Both the position numbers and the translations under genes were made by a program. 32,000 nt of DNA, from the NCBI RefSeq assembly GCF_000300075.1, contig NC_018677.1, forward strand, positions 300,001 through 332,000, in the 5' to 3' direction. The number at the start of each line of letters is the position of its first letter. The first letter of the stretch is position 1. Below are positions 17,257-25,995 of the stretch, in pieces. The stretch is from Candidatus Saccharimonadota bacterium (GTDB lineage: Bacteria > Pseudomonadota > Gammaproteobacteria > Johnevansiales > Johnevansiaceae). The notes under the pieces are model-generated. The model had not been told where the DNA came from and did no database searches. It was given only the letters and a program-made list of their open reading frames with translations.

Positions 17257-18315
17257 ATGACACATAAAAGTTTGTTTTTTAATAAAGCAATTGATTATTT
17301 GATAACTAATAAAGATGGTTTATATATTGATTGTACTTTGGGTTTGGGTGGCCATAGTAAACAAATTTTAAATAGATTGTCTATAAATGGTCTGTTAATT
17401 GCACTAGATAATGACTTAAATACAAAAACATTGGTTAAAAATTTAGAATTCTATTTAGATAAAAGGTTTAGTTTTATCAATATCAATTTTAAGTATTTAG
17501 AAATCATAGCCAAAAAAAAACACTTGTTTGGAATTGTTTCAGGCATCTTATTAGATTTAGGAATTTCTACATATCAAATTAAGGATTATAAAAGAGGCTT
17601 TAGTTTTTTTATAAATGGTCCTTTGGATATGAGAATAAACAATACTTTCGGTATCACCGCTTGTTGCCTTTTAAATCATTATAAATTTAAACAAATCTTT
17701 AAGATATTTAAAACATATGGAGAAGATGAACAGTTGTATAGACTAACAGTAGAGATTTGTAATCGTAGACATCACTTTCCGTTTAAAATGACCTTGGAAT
17801 TATCAAATTTGATAAAAACTTTAAAGTTTACAAACTATCATATAAAACACCAATTAATTAAAACAAAACCTAAAATACAAAAAACATACATTATACATCA
17901 TAAATCTATTAAAATAAAACAAAAATTCATCAAACATTCTAAATCAATTAACACCAAACACATTATAATAAAAGAAAATACAACAAAAAACAAAATAATA
18001 AAAACCAATAACAATAGCATAAATAAAAAAAAGAAAAAACACATACATCCATCAACTAAAATTTTTCAAGCAATACGTAGTTACATAAATAATGAAATAC
18101 AAAACTTGGAAATAGTCATTATTACATCTTTAAAACTTTTAAAAACAAACAAAAAGTTAATAATTATTACATTTAATTCTTTAGAATCACAAATAGTAAA
18201 TAAAGTACTAAAAACAACTTTAAATAAAGTAAATAAAATCTATCCTTCAATTGAAGAGGTATTTTATAACAATAGTTCACGTTGTTCTGCTATATTTATT
18301 ATTCAAAAACTTTAA
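17257..18315 (+). CDS. rsmH: 16S rRNA (cytosine1402-N4)-methyltransferase, with a low-complexity internal expansion
   Basis: DCTLGLGGHS, LLDLGISTYQI, RGFSF..GPLDMRI, HPSTKIFQAIR, FNSLESQIV motifs in RsmH order. Confidence 0.85.
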   Translation: MTHKSLFFNKAIDYLITNKDGLYIDCTLGLGGHSKQILNRLSINGLLIALDNDLNTKTLVKNLEFYLDKRFSFININFKYLEIIAKKKHLFGIVSGILLDLGISTYQIKDYKRGFSFFINGPLDMRINNTFGITACCLLNHYKFKQIFKIFKTYGEDEQLYRLTVEICNRRHHFPFKMTLELSNLIKTLKFTNYHIKHQLIKTKPKIQKTYIIHHKSIKIKQKFIKHSKSINTKHIIIKENTTKNKIIKTNNNSINKKKKKHIHPSTKIFQAIRSYINNEIQNLEIVIITSLKLLKTNKKLIIITFNSLESQIVNKVLKTTLNKVNKIYPSIEEVFYNNSSRCSAIFIIQKL

Positions 18316-19613: not shown

Positions 19614-19647
19614 TGTTAAGTAGTTGCTTTTTAGAGGATAGAGTTTT

Positions 19648-19766
19648 GTTGATTGTTGATTGTTGATTGTTGATTGTTGTTTGTTAGTTGAGGGTTGAGG
19701 GTTGAGGGTTGTAGGTTGTAGGTTGTAGGTTGTAGGTTGTTAGTTGTTAGTTGTTAGTTGTGGTTT
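19648..19766. repeat. 17-unit phase-locked heptamer array
   Basis: (GTTGATT)x4 GTTGTTT GTTAGTT (GAGGGTT)x3 (GTAGGTT)x4 (GTTAGTT)x3 GTGGTTT. Unit starts all fall at 19648+7k. Confidence 0.95.
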
Positions 19767-19844
19767 AGGTTTGATGGTTAAAAGGTCTTAACAAATTATC
19801 TTGTATAGTGGAAGACGATAGTAGAGGTTTAGGTTTGATGGTTA
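19762..19844. repeat. 19-nt direct repeat ggtttaggtttgatggtta x2 (period 64)
   Basis: Identical copies at 19762-19780 and 19826-19844. A second dispersed pair aaaaaaagttagtgggttagttgtt lies near 19547 and 19851. Confidence 0.85.
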
Positions 19845-20352: not shown

Positions 20353-22902
20353 ATGAAGACAAAAATAAAAAAAAACATATATAATGCAACCCCAGCAATA
20401 ACACAATACCTTAGGATAAAAAACCATTATCACAAAATTTTGTTAATGTATCGTATGGGTGATTTTTATGAATTTCTTTTTGAAGATGCGCACACAGCCT
20501 CTGCTTTATTAAATATTCAATTAACTAGCAAAGGAAAATATAATAATAAACGTATTCCTATGGCAGGAATACCTTGTCATAGTTTAAGAACATATTTAAA
20601 ACGTATTATCACAGCAGGAATATCGGTTGCTATTTGTGAACAAATAAAAACAAAAAAAACAAAGAAAAGTAAATTGCTTGAACGAAAAGTAATTCGAGTA
20701 ATTACACCAGGCACTTTATATGAAGACAGTTTATTAGATGAAAGTAAAGATAATTTGATTATATCAATAATTCAAAAAAATAATAAATGGGGTATTTCTT
20801 GGCTAGAATTCACAACAGGTGCTTTTGGTGTTTTGGAAGTTGATAATATACACGATTTACGTTTGGAATTAGATCGATTAAACCCTGTTGAGCTCTTAAT
20901 TTCTAGATTACATAAAAAATTACCTAAACTTCCCGTACACAAATCAATAATTAAACCTATAAGTGATATTAATTTCGATTATAACAATGCTTGTAAAGTT
21001 TTGTTTAAAAAACTAAATATAAAAAATATAAATAAAAAACTTAATGCTGGTGTTTCTGCAGCTGGTGCTATAATACAATATATAAATAATAATAAAATTT
21101 ATAATTTAGCACATATTAACCATTTAATTTTTGAAAATAAAAAAGATAAGTTAAAAATAGATCGTATTACTAAAAAACATTTAGAACTTGATGTAAATGT
21201 TAATGGCAAACAAGAAAATACTTTGTTTAGTGTTTTAAATAATACAATGACACATATGGGGAGTCGTTTATTAAAAAAATGGATTAATAACCCTATTACT
21301 AATTATGATTTAGTTTTTTCTAGACAAAAAGGCGTTGAGATTGTTTTAACAAATAATTTCATAGATATTTTACAAAAATATATAAAAAAAATTGGAGATA
21401 TAGAACGTATTGTTACGAGAATATCTTTAAAAACAGCAAAGCCCTTAGATTTAATCAAATTTAAAATTGCTTTAAACGTTTTTCCTAAACTTAAAACTTT
21501 GTTAAAGGGACTATTAATAGTAAATAAAAACAGCAAGTCTATACTAAATTATATTCATAAAGAGATTTTTACTTTTCCCAATATTGCTTTACTTTTAGAT
21601 GAAGCATTAGTCGATAATCCTCCTAACTCCTTTAGATATGGATATGTAATAAAGTCACATTTTAATAAAAACTTAGATAAGTTGCGTAAAATCTATACTA
21701 ATTCAGAAAAGTTTATAAAAACGTTTGAAAACAAAGAAAAATTACGTACCGGAATAATAAAATTAAAAGTTACTTATAATAAGCTTCATGGTTTGTTTAT
21801 AGAAATACCTAAAGGTCGTAAACATAAATACAAAATTCCTAAAAATTATATAAGAACAAAAACATTAAAAAATTCAGAAAGATTTTATACTAGTGAATTA
21901 AAGTACTTTGAAAAACGTTTAATAGAATCAAAAGAAAAGTCAATAAAATATGAAAAAAGTATTTTTAAAAAATTAATAAAGGTTCTTGTAGGTAATATAC
22001 CTTATTTTATAAAAACATCAAAATCACTAGCCACGTTGGATGTTATTACTACTTTTGCTGAAAGAGCTTTAACACTGAATTATTGCAAACCAATAATAAA
22101 TAAAAACAAAATAGGCATAAAAATCATGGAGGGTAGACATCCTGTAATTGAATCTACAACTAACCATCACTTTGTACCTAATAATTTATTTTTAAATCAT
22201 AATAAAAGTATACACATTATTACAGGACCGAACATGGGTGGAAAGTCTACTTTTATCAGACAAATTGCCATTATTGTTTTATTAACATATATTGGAAGTT
22301 ATGTACCTGCTAAATATGCTGAAATCGGTCCTATTGATCAAATTTTTACCAGAATAGGTGGTTATGATGATTTAAGTGCAGGAAAATCAACTTTTATGAT
22401 TGAAATGCATGAAACTGCTAAAATATTAAACACCGCAACTTTTAAAAGTTTAGTACTAATGGATGAAATAGGAAGAGGAACTAATCCTACAGAGGGTTTA
22501 TGTCTCGCTTGGGCATGTTTAGAAAGAATAATACAAATTAAAGCTTTAACGTTGTTTTCTACTCATTATTTTAGTTTAACTCAAATAGCAAAAAAATTTA
22601 AACAAATAACAAACTTACACTTTAGTGCTTCCATCAAATCTAATAAAGTTAGTTATATTTACAATATACAAAAAGGTGCTACAAACAATAGTTACAGTTC
22701 GTCGGTTGCTAGTTTGGCTAATATAGCACAAGGCGTTATAAATAAATCCAACAATCTTATAAAGCACTTTCAAGATCATCAAAAAAGCCTAAATAAAAGA
22801 CATACGTTAATGAAATATATAAAATCTTTTAAATATAAAGACTTAACACGTTATCTAAAATTTATAAAAAGTTTTTTCAAAAACCTAAAAGATATGTTTT
22901 AA
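20353..22902 (+). CDS. mutS: DNA mismatch repair protein MutS (apparently intact)
   Basis: 849 aa. Mismatch-binding GDFYE, Walker A GPNMGGKSTFIRQ, Walker B LVLMDEIGRGT, STHY. No frame disruption. Confidence 0.93.
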   Translation: MKTKIKKNIYNATPAITQYLRIKNHYHKILLMYRMGDFYEFLFEDAHTASALLNIQLTSKGKYNNKRIPMAGIPCHSLRTYLKRIITAGISVAICEQIKTKKTKKSKLLERKVIRVITPGTLYEDSLLDESKDNLIISIIQKNNKWGISWLEFTTGAFGVLEVDNIHDLRLELDRLNPVELLISRLHKKLPKLPVHKSIIKPISDINFDYNNACKVLFKKLNIKNINKKLNAGVSAAGAIIQYINNNKIYNLAHINHLIFENKKDKLKIDRITKKHLELDVNVNGKQENTLFSVLNNTMTHMGSRLLKKWINNPITNYDLVFSRQKGVEIVLTNNFIDILQKYIKKIGDIERIVTRISLKTAKPLDLIKFKIALNVFPKLKTLLKGLLIVNKNSKSILNYIHKEIFTFPNIALLLDEALVDNPPNSFRYGYVIKSHFNKNLDKLRKIYTNSEKFIKTFENKEKLRTGIIKLKVTYNKLHGLFIEIPKGRKHKYKIPKNYIRTKTLKNSERFYTSELKYFEKRLIESKEKSIKYEKSIFKKLIKVLVGNIPYFIKTSKSLATLDVITTFAERALTLNYCKPIINKNKIGIKIMEGRHPVIESTTNHHFVPNNLFLNHNKSIHIITGPNMGGKSTFIRQIAIIVLLTYIGSYVPAKYAEIGPIDQIFTRIGGYDDLSAGKSTFMIEMHETAKILNTATFKSLVLMDEIGRGTNPTEGLCLAWACLERIIQIKALTLFSTHYFSLTQIAKKFKQITNLHFSASIKSNKVSYIYNIQKGATNNSYSSSVASLANIAQGVINKSNNLIKHFQDHQKSLNKRHTLMKYIKSFKYKDLTRYLKFIKSFFKNLKDMF

Positions 22903-23294
22903 CAACTTTGTCTTATAAACTTTCCTTATTTTACAAATAACTCTTTACCACAACTAACCACTATAGAATTTACAGTTACTATTTTTTTACAATTCTATCA
23001 TCAATTTCTTAAACAACAACCTTCTTTTATAAAAACATCTACTTCAATATTCTTTTATATGTCATACTTCTATATACCCCATATATATCCTATCATACCA
23101 ATACTTCTTACACACAGCATTTAAACTTAACAACTAACTTTTTATAAGTATAACAAATTACATTAAACATTAATCAACCTTCTAAAGCAATAACCATTTA
23201 AATTAATGACAAATAAAAAAATCAATGTTTAAAACATACCATCAACCTTTTTAACTTTTAATATAAAAGCACAAACCTTTTCCATTTTCCTTTT

Positions 23295-23347
23295 CCCTTT
23301 CCCTTTCCCTTTCCCTTTCCCTTTCCCTTTCCCTTCCCCTTCCCCTT
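23295..23347. repeat. Hexamer array (CCCTTT)x6, CCCTT, (CCCCTT)x2
   Basis: Direct reading. The complement is (AAAGGG)n with nine G-runs of 3 or more. Confidence 0.95.
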
Positions 23348-23405
23348 AATCCCCTTTCAACCTTTTTATTTTAACCAAAAACCTTTTACCCTTTATTTTT
23401 TTTCC

Positions 23406-23601
23406 AACCTACAACCTACAACCTACTACCTACTACCTACAACCTACAACCACTAAACACTTACCAACAACCAACAACCAACTACCAACTACCAACTACC
23501 AACTACCAACAACCTACAACCTACAACCAACAACCAACTACCAACTACCTACAACCTACAACCTACAACCTACAACCACTAAACACTAAACACTAAACAC
23601 C
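23406..23601. repeat. 28-unit phase-locked heptamer array (AACCTAC / TACCTAC / AACCAAC / TACCAAC / AAACACT family)
   Basis: Units read at 23406+7k with no phase break across 196 nt. AACCTAC is the reverse complement of the GTAGGTT units at 19711-19738. Confidence 0.93.
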
Positions 23602-23694
23602 ATTCAAACCTTACTACTAACATCAACCCATACTATCAGCAAACAATTACCAACCAACACTTACTTCCAACAACTCCTTACATTTACCCATCTT

Positions 23695-23751
23695 CTTTTT
23701 TAACTAACATAATCAAGTTTAATCAAACTCTTTTTTAACTAACATAATCAA
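23695..23751. repeat. 22-nt tandem duplication cttttttaactaacataatcaa (period 35)
   Basis: Identical copies at 23695-23716 and 23730-23751. Confidence 0.9.
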
Positions 23752-23886
23752 TAACTTAATTTTAACTATAAAACTACATATTTTTTTGTTTTGTTTTCTA
23801 ACAACTATTTACCTAACAAACAACCTCTATCTTTCTACTAATTTAACAAAATCTAATAACTTAACAACTAAACCAATAATTTTTAA

Positions 23887-23935
23887 CTACCAGCTACCAG
23901 CTACCAGCTACCATCAACCATCAACCATCAACCAT
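23887..23935. repeat. Heptamer array (CTACCAG)x3 CTACCAT (CAACCAT)x3
   Basis: Direct reading, single phase. Confidence 0.93.
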
Positions 23936-24066
23936 CTAATTTAATACTACCAACATCTAACATTTAATAACTTCTACTTATTTCATATTATATATATATA
24001 CAACTTCTAACATCTAACATCTAATTTTAGCAACATCTAATAACTATTTACTACAAAACTACCAAC

Positions 24067-24129
24067 TATCTTTCATATAACTACTATACTATATACTACT
24101 ATTATCTTTCATATAACTACTATACTATA
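24067..24129. repeat. 27-nt tandem duplication tatctttcatataactactatactata (period 36)
   Basis: Identical copies at 24067-24093 and 24103-24129. Confidence 0.9.
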
Positions 24130-24311
24130 ATGTATCAATATAAATCAGTTTATATCTTAAATAAAATACAACAAATAATGAAGTAACTAATTCAAATACA
24201 AAGTTATAACATATAAATACTATATTTAAAATAATATAACTTGGTGCTTTAAACTAATAACTACTGTATTACATATTACAAAACATATAAATACAAAGTA
24301 CAAACAAATTA

Positions 24312-24484
24312 CTAACAACTAACAACTAACAACTAACCTAACACCTAACACCTAACACCTCAAACCTAACAACTCTAACCTAACACCTCAAACCTCAAAC
24401 CTCAAACCTCAAACCTAACAACTCTAACCTCTAACCTCTAACCTCTAACCTAACACCTAACACCTAACAACTCTAACCTCTAAC
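24312..24484. repeat. Heptamer arrays: (CTAACAA)x3, one 5-nt phase slip, then 21 phase-locked units of CTAACAC / CTCAAAC / CTAACAA / CTCTAAC
   Basis: All 21 units from 24338 to 24484 were read individually. Confidence 0.95.
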
Positions 24485-24494
24485 TGATAACAAT

Positions 24495-24526
<32 letters not shown>

Positions 24527-24562
24527 ATAACAACTTTAAAGCAAAACTCAAACATCTATTAA

Positions 24563-24590
24563 CTAATAACTAACAACTAACAACTAACAA
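24563..24590. repeat. Heptamer array CTAATAA (CTAACAA)x3
   Basis: Direct reading. Confidence 0.9.
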
Positions 24591-24945
24591 TTTACAAATA
24601 CAAACTATTAAACAAAAAAGCATCAATTAACTAACAACTTTTAATCTATTTTTTTTAATCTAACCTCTAATAACAAACATCAAAAACTTTAACTCAAAAA
24701 TCAACAATACAAAACAGCAAACATAACCATCAACAATACAAACTCTAAACTTTAAACAAAAATATAACAAATAACACAAAACTGAAAAATACTAGTAGAA
24801 AACAACGAAAAAAGAAAACCTAAAAAGCAATAACAAAACACCTAACTGCAACTACAAAACTAAAAAACAGCTAACAAACAACAAACAACACATAATATAA
24901 AGAGAGATAAACCCAAATATTAGATATAACAACAAAAATATTTGT

Positions 24946-25059
24946 AATAATATACGACCAGTATTAGCGGTAATAAAGTCAGTACCAGCGGTAATATACG
25001 ACCAGTATTAGCGGTAATAAAGCTCCATAGACCAGTATTAGCGGTAATAAAGTCAGTAA
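24946..25059. repeat. Three and a half direct copies of a 22-31 nt unit (core accagtattagcggtaataaag)
   Basis: Core at 24957-24978, 25001-25022 and 25031-25052. A shortened copy accagcggtaata at 24984-24996. Copies 1 and 2 share 31 nt and copies 1 and 3 share 29 nt. Confidence 0.9.
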
Positions 25060-25479
25060 TATATGGAGTTGTTTTTTTGAGCCAATTTAAATGAAGAATC
25101 TGTACATAAATAATCAGGTAAGTCAAAAAAAGTAAAAATGTAAGTTTGTCCATAATAGTATTGGTTGACACATTCTATAAAAATACATTAATAAACCACT
25201 TGAAAACGATGTAAATGCAAAATCTCTATCACTTACTGCATCGAAAAATTTTTATAAGATCAAAACATAGTAGCTTTTTAATTAAGGCACAAATTCAAGT
25301 TGAATATGTAGTTACAGCAGATCATATCCTAAAGGTAATATATTTATTATTTTCCGCCAATCTAAAAATACGTAAATAAGCTCTAAATAGCTTTTAATTT
25401 TAAGCTAATACATGATGGCAAAAAGTAATTGTGTGCTGTGATGATTGTAACTGATTTTATCCAGTTAATATAGTATAAG

Positions 25480-25514
25480 AATCACTAATCACTAATAGCT
25501 AATAGCTAATAGCT
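25480..25514. repeat. Heptamer array (AATCACT)x2 (AATAGCT)x3
   Basis: Direct reading. Confidence 0.9.
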
Positions 25515-25922
25515 ATTTTTCTTAAAGCTGGTCTTAACTTTAGTTAGTTAATGCATCTATTTTTTTTCTTAAATTAAGATGAATAGCTGTAGAAAACAAT
25601 CACATATATGCATTTTTTTTTCAAAGCTTTCTATTCTTTATTATTTTGCTAAACCACTTTATATTCTTTCTTAATACAACTTTCAATTACTTTTTATTCC
25701 TTTTTTTATACTTTTACTTTCTTTTCAACAACTAACATTTTTCTTATTGTTGTATTTTTTATATTTACGTTGATATCATACCAATAAATACGAAAATAAA
25801 ACTTATAGAATTTAACTACGAAATTATCAGTATAAAAATTAAAACAGCTACGTCTAATCAGGTTATTTTAACGTGTTCATTTTAAATTTTGCTATATGCT
25901 ATTAAGTTTATATTATATATAA

Positions 25923-25995
25923 GCCGGAGTAGCTCATATGGTAGAGCACCGCATTCGTAATGCGAAGGTAATAGGTTCAATTCCTATCTCCGGTA
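25923..25995 (+). tRNA. tRNA-Thr (anticodon CGU)
   Basis: Manual cloverleaf: acceptor gccggag/ctccggt, loop ttCGTaa, T arm atagg-ttcaatt-cctat. The anticodon arm and variable region (cgcattcgtaatgcgaaggt) are identical to E. coli tRNA-Thr(CGU) as I remember it. Confidence 0.88.

What the first reader, a model, noticed from the sequence alone, without database searches (positions are those of the whole stretch)
23406..23601. 196-nt, 28-unit heptamer array with a constrained consensus [A/T]A[C/A]C[T/A]AC
Read at 23406+7k, the units are: AACCTAC x3, TACCTAC x2, AACCTAC, AACCACT, AAACACT, TACCAAC, AACCAAC x2, TACCAAC x4, AACCTAC x2, AACCAAC x2, TACCAAC, TACCTAC, AACCTAC x3, AACCACT, AAACACT x2, AAACACC. 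No phase break occurs. The block pattern AACCTAC...AACCACT-AAACACT appears twice, ending at about 23461 and about 23594. This suggests a higher-order duplication of roughly 130 nt superimposed on the heptamer unit.
Basis: seen in the sequence. Interest (0 to 1): 0.55.

Follow-up and report, generated by a model that had tools for sequence, protein, structure and literature searches.

The report
Known heptamer microsatellite of whitefly symbiont

Summary
The window comes from the 351,658-bp genome of Candidatus Portiera aleyrodidarum of Bemisia tabaci.

A spike of 7-bp tandem repeats and 7-bp indels in the spacers of this lineage was published by Sloan and Moran in 2013. It was linked there to loss of dnaQ, mutL, ssb and other replication and repair genes.

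The higher-order duplication is not supported. Identity at lag 18 units is 82.9% against 73.3 ± 5.4% for permuted units (p 0.05 at that lag, 0.40 after choosing the best lag). It is also lower than the neighbour identity of 87.8%.

New here:
- An independent assembly has the same allele plus one unit, with no substitution in the spacer.
- Other strains with identical mutS DNA carry different heptamer families between the same flanks.
- The four-variant vocabulary of this allele matches an array 23 kb away, which suggests but does not prove ectopic copying.
- Strand purity (G or C, never both) holds genome-wide. A sister lineage that uses 5-bp units shares it. It remains unexplained.

The scan had noted this repeat class before, elsewhere in this genome.

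The parts
23406..23601 (.). The 28-unit heptamer array: 22 units of [A/T]ACC[T/A]AC plus 6 units of the CACTAAA family. No G.
   Evidence: same allele with 29 units in CP016304.1
23448..23461 (.). First AACCACT-AAACACT pair. This CACTAAACAC piece is also present in the Q-type and short alleles of this locus, so it is probably native.
23574..23601 (.). Second AACCACT-AAACACT pair, then AAACACT and AAACACC. TRF calls this a separate CACTAAA x3.4 array.
23435..23461 (.). First copy of the 27-nt exact repeat (second copy 23561-23587, offset 126 nt). This is the only concrete trace of the proposed higher-order duplication.
   Evidence: not significant
23509..23549 (.). 41-nt word identical to the reverse strand of genome 346996-347036, the smpB-thrC spacer array 23 kb away.
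   Evidence: p 0.03 for unit permutation, 0.31 for run permutation
23270..23638 (+). 369-nt G-free run, the longest in the genome.
23276..23347 (.). Neighbouring CCTTTT/CCCTTT hexamer array, also variable in copy number between strains.
22903..24900 (+). G-poor (A+C-rich) repeat-built part of the mutS to tRNA-Thr spacer. It has no recognisable gene remnant.
24311..24590 (.). ACTAACA-family array, the largest period-7 array of the genome (40 copies), in the same spacer.
25062..25525 (-). argH (argininosuccinate lyase) pseudogene remnant, frameshifted, covering residues 138-291 of 464.
19645..19768 (.). Heptamer arrays upstream of mutS in the opposite polarity (C-free). They include (GGTTGTA)4, the reverse complement of the AACCTAC family.
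20353..22902 (+). mutS, intact (five MutS Pfam domains). Its DNA differs at 0-3 of 2550 positions across all strains compared.
25923..25995 (+). tRNA-Thr (CGT), the right end of the spacer.

Best explanation
The array is a non-coding, hypermutable 7-bp microsatellite in one of the bloated intergenic spacers of Portiera from Bemisia tabaci. It most likely grows, shrinks and changes its unit variants by replication slippage in steps of one or a few heptamers. The published background is a replisome and repair system that has lost dnaQ, dnaN, dnaX, holA, holB, ssb, mutL and ruvC. It has no function of its own. Its 'consensus' is the shared ancestry of the units, plus the fact that only G-free units are being copied. 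Shown here: the organism, the intergenic position, the lack of coding or regulatory signal, the 7-nt step between two assemblies of the same lineage, and wholesale allele turnover between strains with identical neighbouring genes. Inferred: slippage as the mechanism, and the causal link to the gene losses, which is taken from the 2013 paper.
For: Organism: MutS gives a 72% match to a record titled Candidatus Portiera aleyrodidarum. The same MutS is encoded in six other 351-376-kb complete assemblies.

Repeat class: the genome holds 111 period-7 arrays. Period 7 and its multiples dominate tandem-repeat content. Lag-7 self-similarity persists even in spacer DNA outside called arrays.

Published precedent: there is a 'dramatic spike at 7 bp' in tandem repeat lengths, the indel spectrum is enriched for 7-bp changes, and the repeats are intergenic. 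The lost replication and repair genes are listed in the same paper (PMC3673631).

Not coding: a 369-nt G-free stretch can contain no ATG, GTG or TTG. Every frame of the minus strand hits TAG.

No regulatory or structural signal: there is no promoter-like or terminator-like site inside the array. Both strands fold to 0 kcal/mol.

Stepwise change: CP016304.1 differs from the window in this 3.1-kb spacer by 0 substitutions and 4 repeat-number indels (+6, +7, +7, +21). One of them is an extra AACCTAC in this array.

Turnover: strains with 0 differences in 2550 nt of mutS, and 3 differences in 1904 nt of unique spacer, carry CAACCAC/CAAACAC/TAACCAC/AAACCAT arrays between the same flanks. Three different alleles occur in four such genomes. 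More distant strains have a 38-nt unexpanded version or a (TACCACC)n expansion.
Against: Slippage was not observed directly. Pure in-situ slippage does not easily explain how this lineage's allele replaced the C-initial units of its relatives with four A/T-initial variants over a divergence of about 0.16%. Nothing here explains why the step is 7 bases, or why arrays hold G or C but almost never both.
Confidence: 0.9

Rival explanations
1. The allele in this lineage is a mosaic. Blocks of [A/T]ACC[T/A]AC units were copied into the mutS-downstream locus from the smpB-thrC spacer array, which lies 23 kb away in inverted orientation. The copying would be by ectopic gene conversion or template switching. 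The native CACTAAACAC pieces were left at units 7-8 and 25-28. This adds to slippage and would not replace it.
For: The smpB-thrC array uses exactly the same four variants (AACCTAC, TACCTAC, AACCAAC, TACCAAC) and shares a 41-nt exact word with this array. That vocabulary is present at smpB-thrC in this lineage, in Q-type strains and, as AACCTAC runs, in two more distant strains. It is therefore old at that locus. At the mutS-downstream locus it occurs only in this lineage. Relatives have C-initial units there. The mutS-upstream array also holds (GGTTGTA)4 in this lineage and none in Q-type strains. Gene conversion between repeats in this genome is published (PMC3673631).
Against: The shared 41-nt word is not significant once the blocky structure is kept (run permutation p = 0.31). 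Each variant is one substitution away from the native CACCTAC or CACCAAC units, so convergence by mutation and amplification is possible. No conversion tract boundary can be defined inside a repeat.
Confidence: 0.45
2. A genuine ~126-133-nt higher-order duplication, superimposed on the heptamer unit, produced the two AACCTAC...AACCACT-AAACACT blocks.
For: There is a 27-nt exact repeat at offset 126. The rare unit AACCACT occurs twice, each time preceded by AACCTAC and followed by AAACACT. Q-type alleles carry a 20-nt marker with the array's only G twice.
Against: Lag-18 identity gives p 0.053 at that lag and 0.40 corrected. It is lower than lag-1 identity. The exact repeat gives p 0.17-0.30. 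Only 3-4 units match exactly, and the rest is generic family similarity.
Confidence: 0.25
3. The array is functional: a phase-variable contingency locus, a protein-binding array or a repeat-peptide gene.
For: All three plus-strand frames are open for 40-80 codons and read as PTTYNLQ-like heptads. The array lies next to mutS.
Against: No start codon is possible in the G-free run. TAA stops interrupt all frames within the array or at its ends. Alleles differ by lengths that are not multiples of 3, and by whole unit families. The array starts 504 nt after the mutS stop and lies 2.3 kb from the next gene. It holds no promoter-like site. About 110 similar arrays of other sequence are scattered in either polarity, unrelated to gene orientation.
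Confidence: 0.03

Closest known systems
7-bp intergenic microsatellites of Portiera from Bemisia tabaci (Sloan and Moran 2013, Genome Biol Evol 5:783, PMC3673631)
   Same: Same organism and lineage. Same 7-bp unit, intergenic location and 7-bp indel polymorphism between strains. Same association with oversized spacers.
   Different: The passages of the paper that I searched do not mention per-locus allele replacement, the G-or-C-only strand purity, or shared unit vocabularies between dispersed arrays. The searches for 'skew' and 'heptanucleotide' found nothing, and 'strand' and 'motif' occur only in other contexts. I did not read the whole text.
Expanded repeat-rich spacers of the other unstable Portiera lineage (Aleurolobini; Santos-Garcia et al. 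2020, PMC7821994)
   Same: Unstable genome, large spacers, dnaQ decay. In the sampled 60 kb of genome G002, arrays are likewise G-only or C-only.
   Different: Units there have period 5, 10 or 15 instead of 7. The identity of G002 with the published Singhiella genome is my inference from its size and contig number.
STRR heptanucleotide tandem repeats of heterocystous cyanobacteria (from memory: Mazel et al. 1990)
   Same: Tandem heptamers in non-coding DNA of a bacterium.
   Different: Unrelated organism and unit sequences. No known link to loss of replication genes. Recalled from memory and not tested here.
Phase-variable simple sequence repeats (contingency loci) of Haemophilus, Neisseria and Campylobacter
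   Same: Slippage-prone short tandem repeats whose unit number changes at high rate.
   Different: Those repeats sit inside a reading frame or promoter and switch a gene on or off. This array lies in neither.

Membership tests
Portiera (B. tabaci lineage) 7-bp intergenic microsatellites | The genome is Portiera of the B. tabaci lineage | tested here: met
   A 351,658-bp single contig. MutS is 72% identical to a titled Portiera record, and identical MutS occurs in 351-376-kb assemblies. The gene set is that of an amino-acid-supplying endosymbiont.
Portiera (B. tabaci lineage) 7-bp intergenic microsatellites | Tandem repeat with a 7-bp unit | tested here: met
   TRF period 7 with 24.7 copies; 28 units in phase.
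Portiera (B. tabaci lineage) 7-bp intergenic microsatellites | Intergenic and non-coding | tested here: met
   Lies between the mutS stop (22902) and tRNA-Thr (25923). No start codon is possible, and there is no Pfam or Rfam hit.
Portiera (B. tabaci lineage) 7-bp intergenic microsatellites | Unit-number (7-bp) polymorphism between strains | tested here: met
   A +7 nt difference in CP016304.1 with no substitution in the spacer. Q-type alleles differ from each other by whole units.
Higher-order repeat (multi-unit period superimposed on the monomer) | Copies one higher-order period apart are more alike than neighbouring monomers, and more alike than permuted units | tested here: not met
   Lag 18 gives 82.9% against 87.8% at lag 1. 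Permutation p is 0.053 for the single lag and 0.40 corrected.
Contingency locus (phase-variable SSR) | The repeat lies within a reading frame or a promoter, so that unit number switches expression | tested here: not met
   The array starts 504 nt downstream of the mutS stop and lies 2.3 kb from the next gene. There are no promoter-like hexamers in the array.
Protein-coding heptad or tandem peptide repeat | An open frame with a start codon, and alleles that keep the frame | tested here: not met
   No ATG, GTG or TTG in 369 nt. Alleles differ by 7-nt steps and by whole unit families.

The most novel reading that the evidence does not exclude
Dispersed heptamer arrays in this genome exchange sequence, and this allele was written from the smpB-thrC array 23 kb away. 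In addition, the near-total G-only or C-only purity of the arrays would be the footprint of replication without SSB, sliding clamp, clamp loader and proofreader. That purity is shared with a sister lineage that slips in 5-bp steps. Under this reading, DNA able to fold on itself is purged. Only unstructured single-class DNA is amplified, with a step length set by each lineage's crippled polymerase.
Probability: 0.2. Interest if true: 0.55.

Novelty: already known. Interest (0 to 1): 0.25.

Why it matters
As a class, this is published biology. It is an example of what happens to non-coding DNA when an endosymbiont loses proofreading and repair.

The locus is still useful in two ways. First, it is an extremely fast marker. 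It separates whitefly-symbiont lineages whose neighbouring 2.5-kb gene is identical. It even separates two assemblies of the same lineage, so it could serve for strain typing of B. tabaci populations. Second, the side observations give a concrete handle on how a stripped-down replisome makes new DNA. These are allele replacement between identical flanks, a unit vocabulary shared with a distant array, strand purity, and 7-bp steps here against 5-bp steps in a sister lineage. None of them is established enough here to change the verdict.

Tried and rejected
1. Eukaryotic or telomere-like origin. This was my first impression from the AT-rich, G-free heptamers. I rejected it because of the bacterial RNase P, the tRNAs and the tightly packed bacterial genes.
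2. Coding under another genetic code. The minus strand has TAG in every unit, and the plus strand has no possible start. Rejected.
3. Spacer polarity set by flanking gene orientation. Sense-oriented skew of upstream flanks (n = 45) and downstream flanks (n = 43) is not different from zero (sign tests p 0.37 and 0.76). Rejected.
4. Polarity set by replichore. Polarity flips many times along the chromosome, and even within single spacers. No support.
5. Hairpin-driven expansion. Both strands fold to 0 kcal/mol. Rejected.
6. A hidden RNA gene in the spacer. Rfam at E <= 1 finds only tRNA-Thr.
7. Spacer derived from the decayed lysA gene. tblastn finds no trace of lysA, only the argH remnant.
9. 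A metagenome scan for a 28-nt word of the array found nothing.
10. The genome search by locus handle for CP016304.1 was not possible. The record was reached through the AI-2E transporter protein instead.
11. One look-up failed because I mis-set the smpB coordinates. It was corrected.

Full report
**What is there.**
The counts are AACCTAC x9, TACCAAC x6, AACCAAC x4, TACCTAC x3, AAACACT x3, AACCACT x2 and AAACACC x1. The composition is A89 C81 T26 G0. TRF reports period 7 with 24.7 copies, and treats the last units as a separate CACTAAA array. The stated consensus fits 22 of the 28 units. The other six belong to the CACTAAA family. The array lies in a 369-nt G-free run (23270-23638). That is the longest such run in the genome and is essentially impossible by chance for spacer composition.

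**Where it is.**
The window is bacterial. It holds a class A RNase P RNA, four tRNAs and tightly packed genes for histidine synthesis, prs, L25, rsmH and mutS. It is bases 300001-332000 of a single 351,658-bp contig. MutS matches a record titled Candidatus Portiera aleyrodidarum at 72%. The identical MutS is found in other complete assemblies of 351-376 kb. The organism is therefore Portiera from the Bemisia tabaci complex. From memory of the genome size I take it to be the biotype B (MEAM1) assembly, but I could not confirm that with a tool.

The array sits in the 3-kb spacer between the mutS stop (22902) and tRNA-Thr (25923). The left 2 kb of that spacer is G-poor and built from tandem arrays. 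The right part holds a frameshifted argH remnant at 25062-25525 on the minus strand.

**Already published.**
Sloan and Moran (2013, PMC3673631) made four points about this lineage:
- Its spacers are abnormally long.
- Tandem-repeat lengths show 'a dramatic spike at 7 bp'.
- Recent indels are enriched for 7-bp changes inside such repeats.
- The lineage has lost dnaN, dnaQ, dnaX, holA, holB, mutL, ruvC and ssb.

Santos-Garcia et al. (2020, PMC7821994) count 111 tandem repeats in the B. tabaci Portiera genome. My own TRF run happens to find 111 period-7 arrays in this genome. Lag-7 self-similarity is also raised in spacer DNA outside the called arrays, at 0.362 against about 0.339 at lags 6 and 8. 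Much of the 'unique' spacer is therefore decayed heptamer array. Earlier notes of this scan reached the same classification for other spacers of this genome.

**The higher-order duplication.**
- At lag 18 units (126 nt) nucleotide identity is 82.9%, against 73.3 ± 5.4% for permutations of the same 28 units.
- That gives p = 0.053 for that lag alone. It gives p = 0.40 once the best lag of 10 or more is chosen.
- It is lower than the lag-1 identity of 87.8%, the opposite of a true higher-order repeat.
- The concrete trace is a 27-nt exact repeat, 23435-23461 = 23561-23587. A repeat that long at an offset of 63 nt or more appears in 17% of unit permutations and 30% of run permutations.

Only three or four units match exactly. 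The rest is generic family likeness. The idea is not absurd, because Q-type alleles of the same locus carry a 20-nt marker with the array's only G twice, 84-112 nt apart (p about 0.08-0.12). It is not demonstrated, however.

**Comparison between strains.**
- *Same lineage.* An independent assembly, CP016304.1, has the same allele with 29 units. The order is identical, with one more AACCTAC in the middle block. Across the whole 3.1-kb spacer the two assemblies differ by 0 substitutions and 4 indels. All four lie in arrays: +6, +7 (this array), +7 and +21. This confirms the block order and shows change in 7-nt steps.
- *Q-type strains.* Four genomes have mutS DNA differing from the window at 0-1 of 2550 positions (three at none, CM014390.1 at one), and only 3-4 differences in 1904 nt of non-repeat spacer. 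Between the very same flanks they carry arrays of CAACCAC, CAAACAC, TAACCAC and AAACCAT. They have no AACCTAC, and the four genomes hold three different alleles.
- *More distant strains.* These show 1.2-1.4% divergence in the spacer. They have only a 38-nt run of five unlike heptamers (CACTTAC, CACTAAA, CACCAAC, CACAATA, CACCTAC) and lack about 0.9 kb of downstream spacer. One further strain has amplified CACCTAC.

Each allele thus reads as a different amplification from one small C/A-only proto-array. All alleles keep the same polarity. Short-read contigs stop at the array.

**A possible second process.**
The four variants of this allele are exactly those of another array. That array lies at genome 346965-347068 on the other strand, in the smpB-thrC spacer. 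The two share a 41-nt exact word.

This vocabulary is present at smpB-thrC in this lineage and in Q-type strains. As AACCTAC runs it is also present in two more distant strains. At the mutS-downstream locus only this lineage has it. The mutS-upstream array likewise holds (GGTTGTA)4 in this lineage and none in Q-type strains. This suggests ectopic copying between arrays, which would fit the gene conversion published for this genome.

The evidence is not decisive. The shared word is not significant once the run structure is kept (p = 0.03 for unit permutation, 0.31 for run permutation). Each variant is also one substitution away from a native unit. I put ectopic copying at about 45%.

**Function.**
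I found none.
- No start codon can exist in the G-free run. Every minus-strand frame hits TAG.
- There is no promoter-like or terminator-like site in the array.
- Rfam finds nothing in the spacer apart from tRNA-Thr.
- Both strands fold to 0 kcal/mol.
- Alleles are not conserved.

**Strand purity.**
Of the 96 period-7 arrays whose consensus unit has two or more G/C letters, 75 hold only G or only C. About 37 would be expected if G and C were assigned at random. The nominal p is 4e-15, but the arrays are not independent. Among 100-bp spacer windows, 22% have |GC skew| of 0.8 or more, against 0.6% of coding windows.

Polarity does not follow flanking gene orientation or chromosome position. It often flips within a spacer, as it does on either side of mutS. 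In 60 kb sampled from a sister Portiera genome with expanded spacers (G002), arrays have period 5, 10 or 15 and show the same purity. The step length is therefore a habit of each lineage, while the purity is shared.

I did not find the purity mentioned in the passages of the three papers that I searched. Its cause is open. One possibility is that it is inherited from G-free seed units. Others are one-strand cytosine deamination, and purging of foldable DNA in a cell without SSB.

**Verdict.**
The object is a member of an already published class.

Noticed in passing
window 23276-23347: A (CCTTTT)/(CCCTTT)n hexamer array lies just left of the heptamer array. Its minus strand (AAAGGG)n fits a G-quadruplex pattern. 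Copy number differs between strains (+6 nt in CP016304.1, about -50 nt in Q-type genomes).
   Followed up: partly
window 25062-25525 (-): Frameshifted remnant of argH (residues 138-291 of 464, in three frames). Other Portiera genomes have intact lysA-argH next to the AI-2E transporter gene. No trace of lysA remains here.
   Followed up: yes
window 24948-25019: A 23-nt tandem repeat (3.2 copies, G-containing) lies next to the argH remnant. Strains differ there by 23-nt and 53-nt gaps.
   Followed up: no
window 19645-19768 and 23405-23607: Arrays of the same unit family flank mutS in inverted orientation (arms up to 124 nt at 73% complementarity; 60 nt at 88%, with the first 31 nt identical). 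They are a potential substrate for inversion of the mutS segment. The (GGTTGTA)4 block upstream is absent from Q-type strains.
   Followed up: partly
genome 346965-347068 (L028), outside the window: The smpB-thrC spacer array has the same four unit variants and shares a 41-nt exact word with 23509-23549. It varies by single units between this genome and CP016304.1.
   Followed up: yes
window 17257-18315: rsmH carries a K/I/N-rich low-complexity insertion between the two stretches that match the MraW methylase family.
   Followed up: no
L025-L027 (genome G002, a sister Portiera with expanded spacers): Tandem arrays there have period 5, 10 or 15 instead of 7, and are likewise G-only or C-only.
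   Followed up: partly
whole genome, coding regions: Third-codon-position GC skew follows gene orientation (mean +0.23 on the sense strand). Spacer polarity shows no such relation.
   Followed up: partly
L019-L022 (Logan short-read contigs): Short-read contigs carrying mutS end at or just inside the hexamer or heptamer arrays. Public short-read assemblies therefore systematically break at these loci.
   Followed up: no
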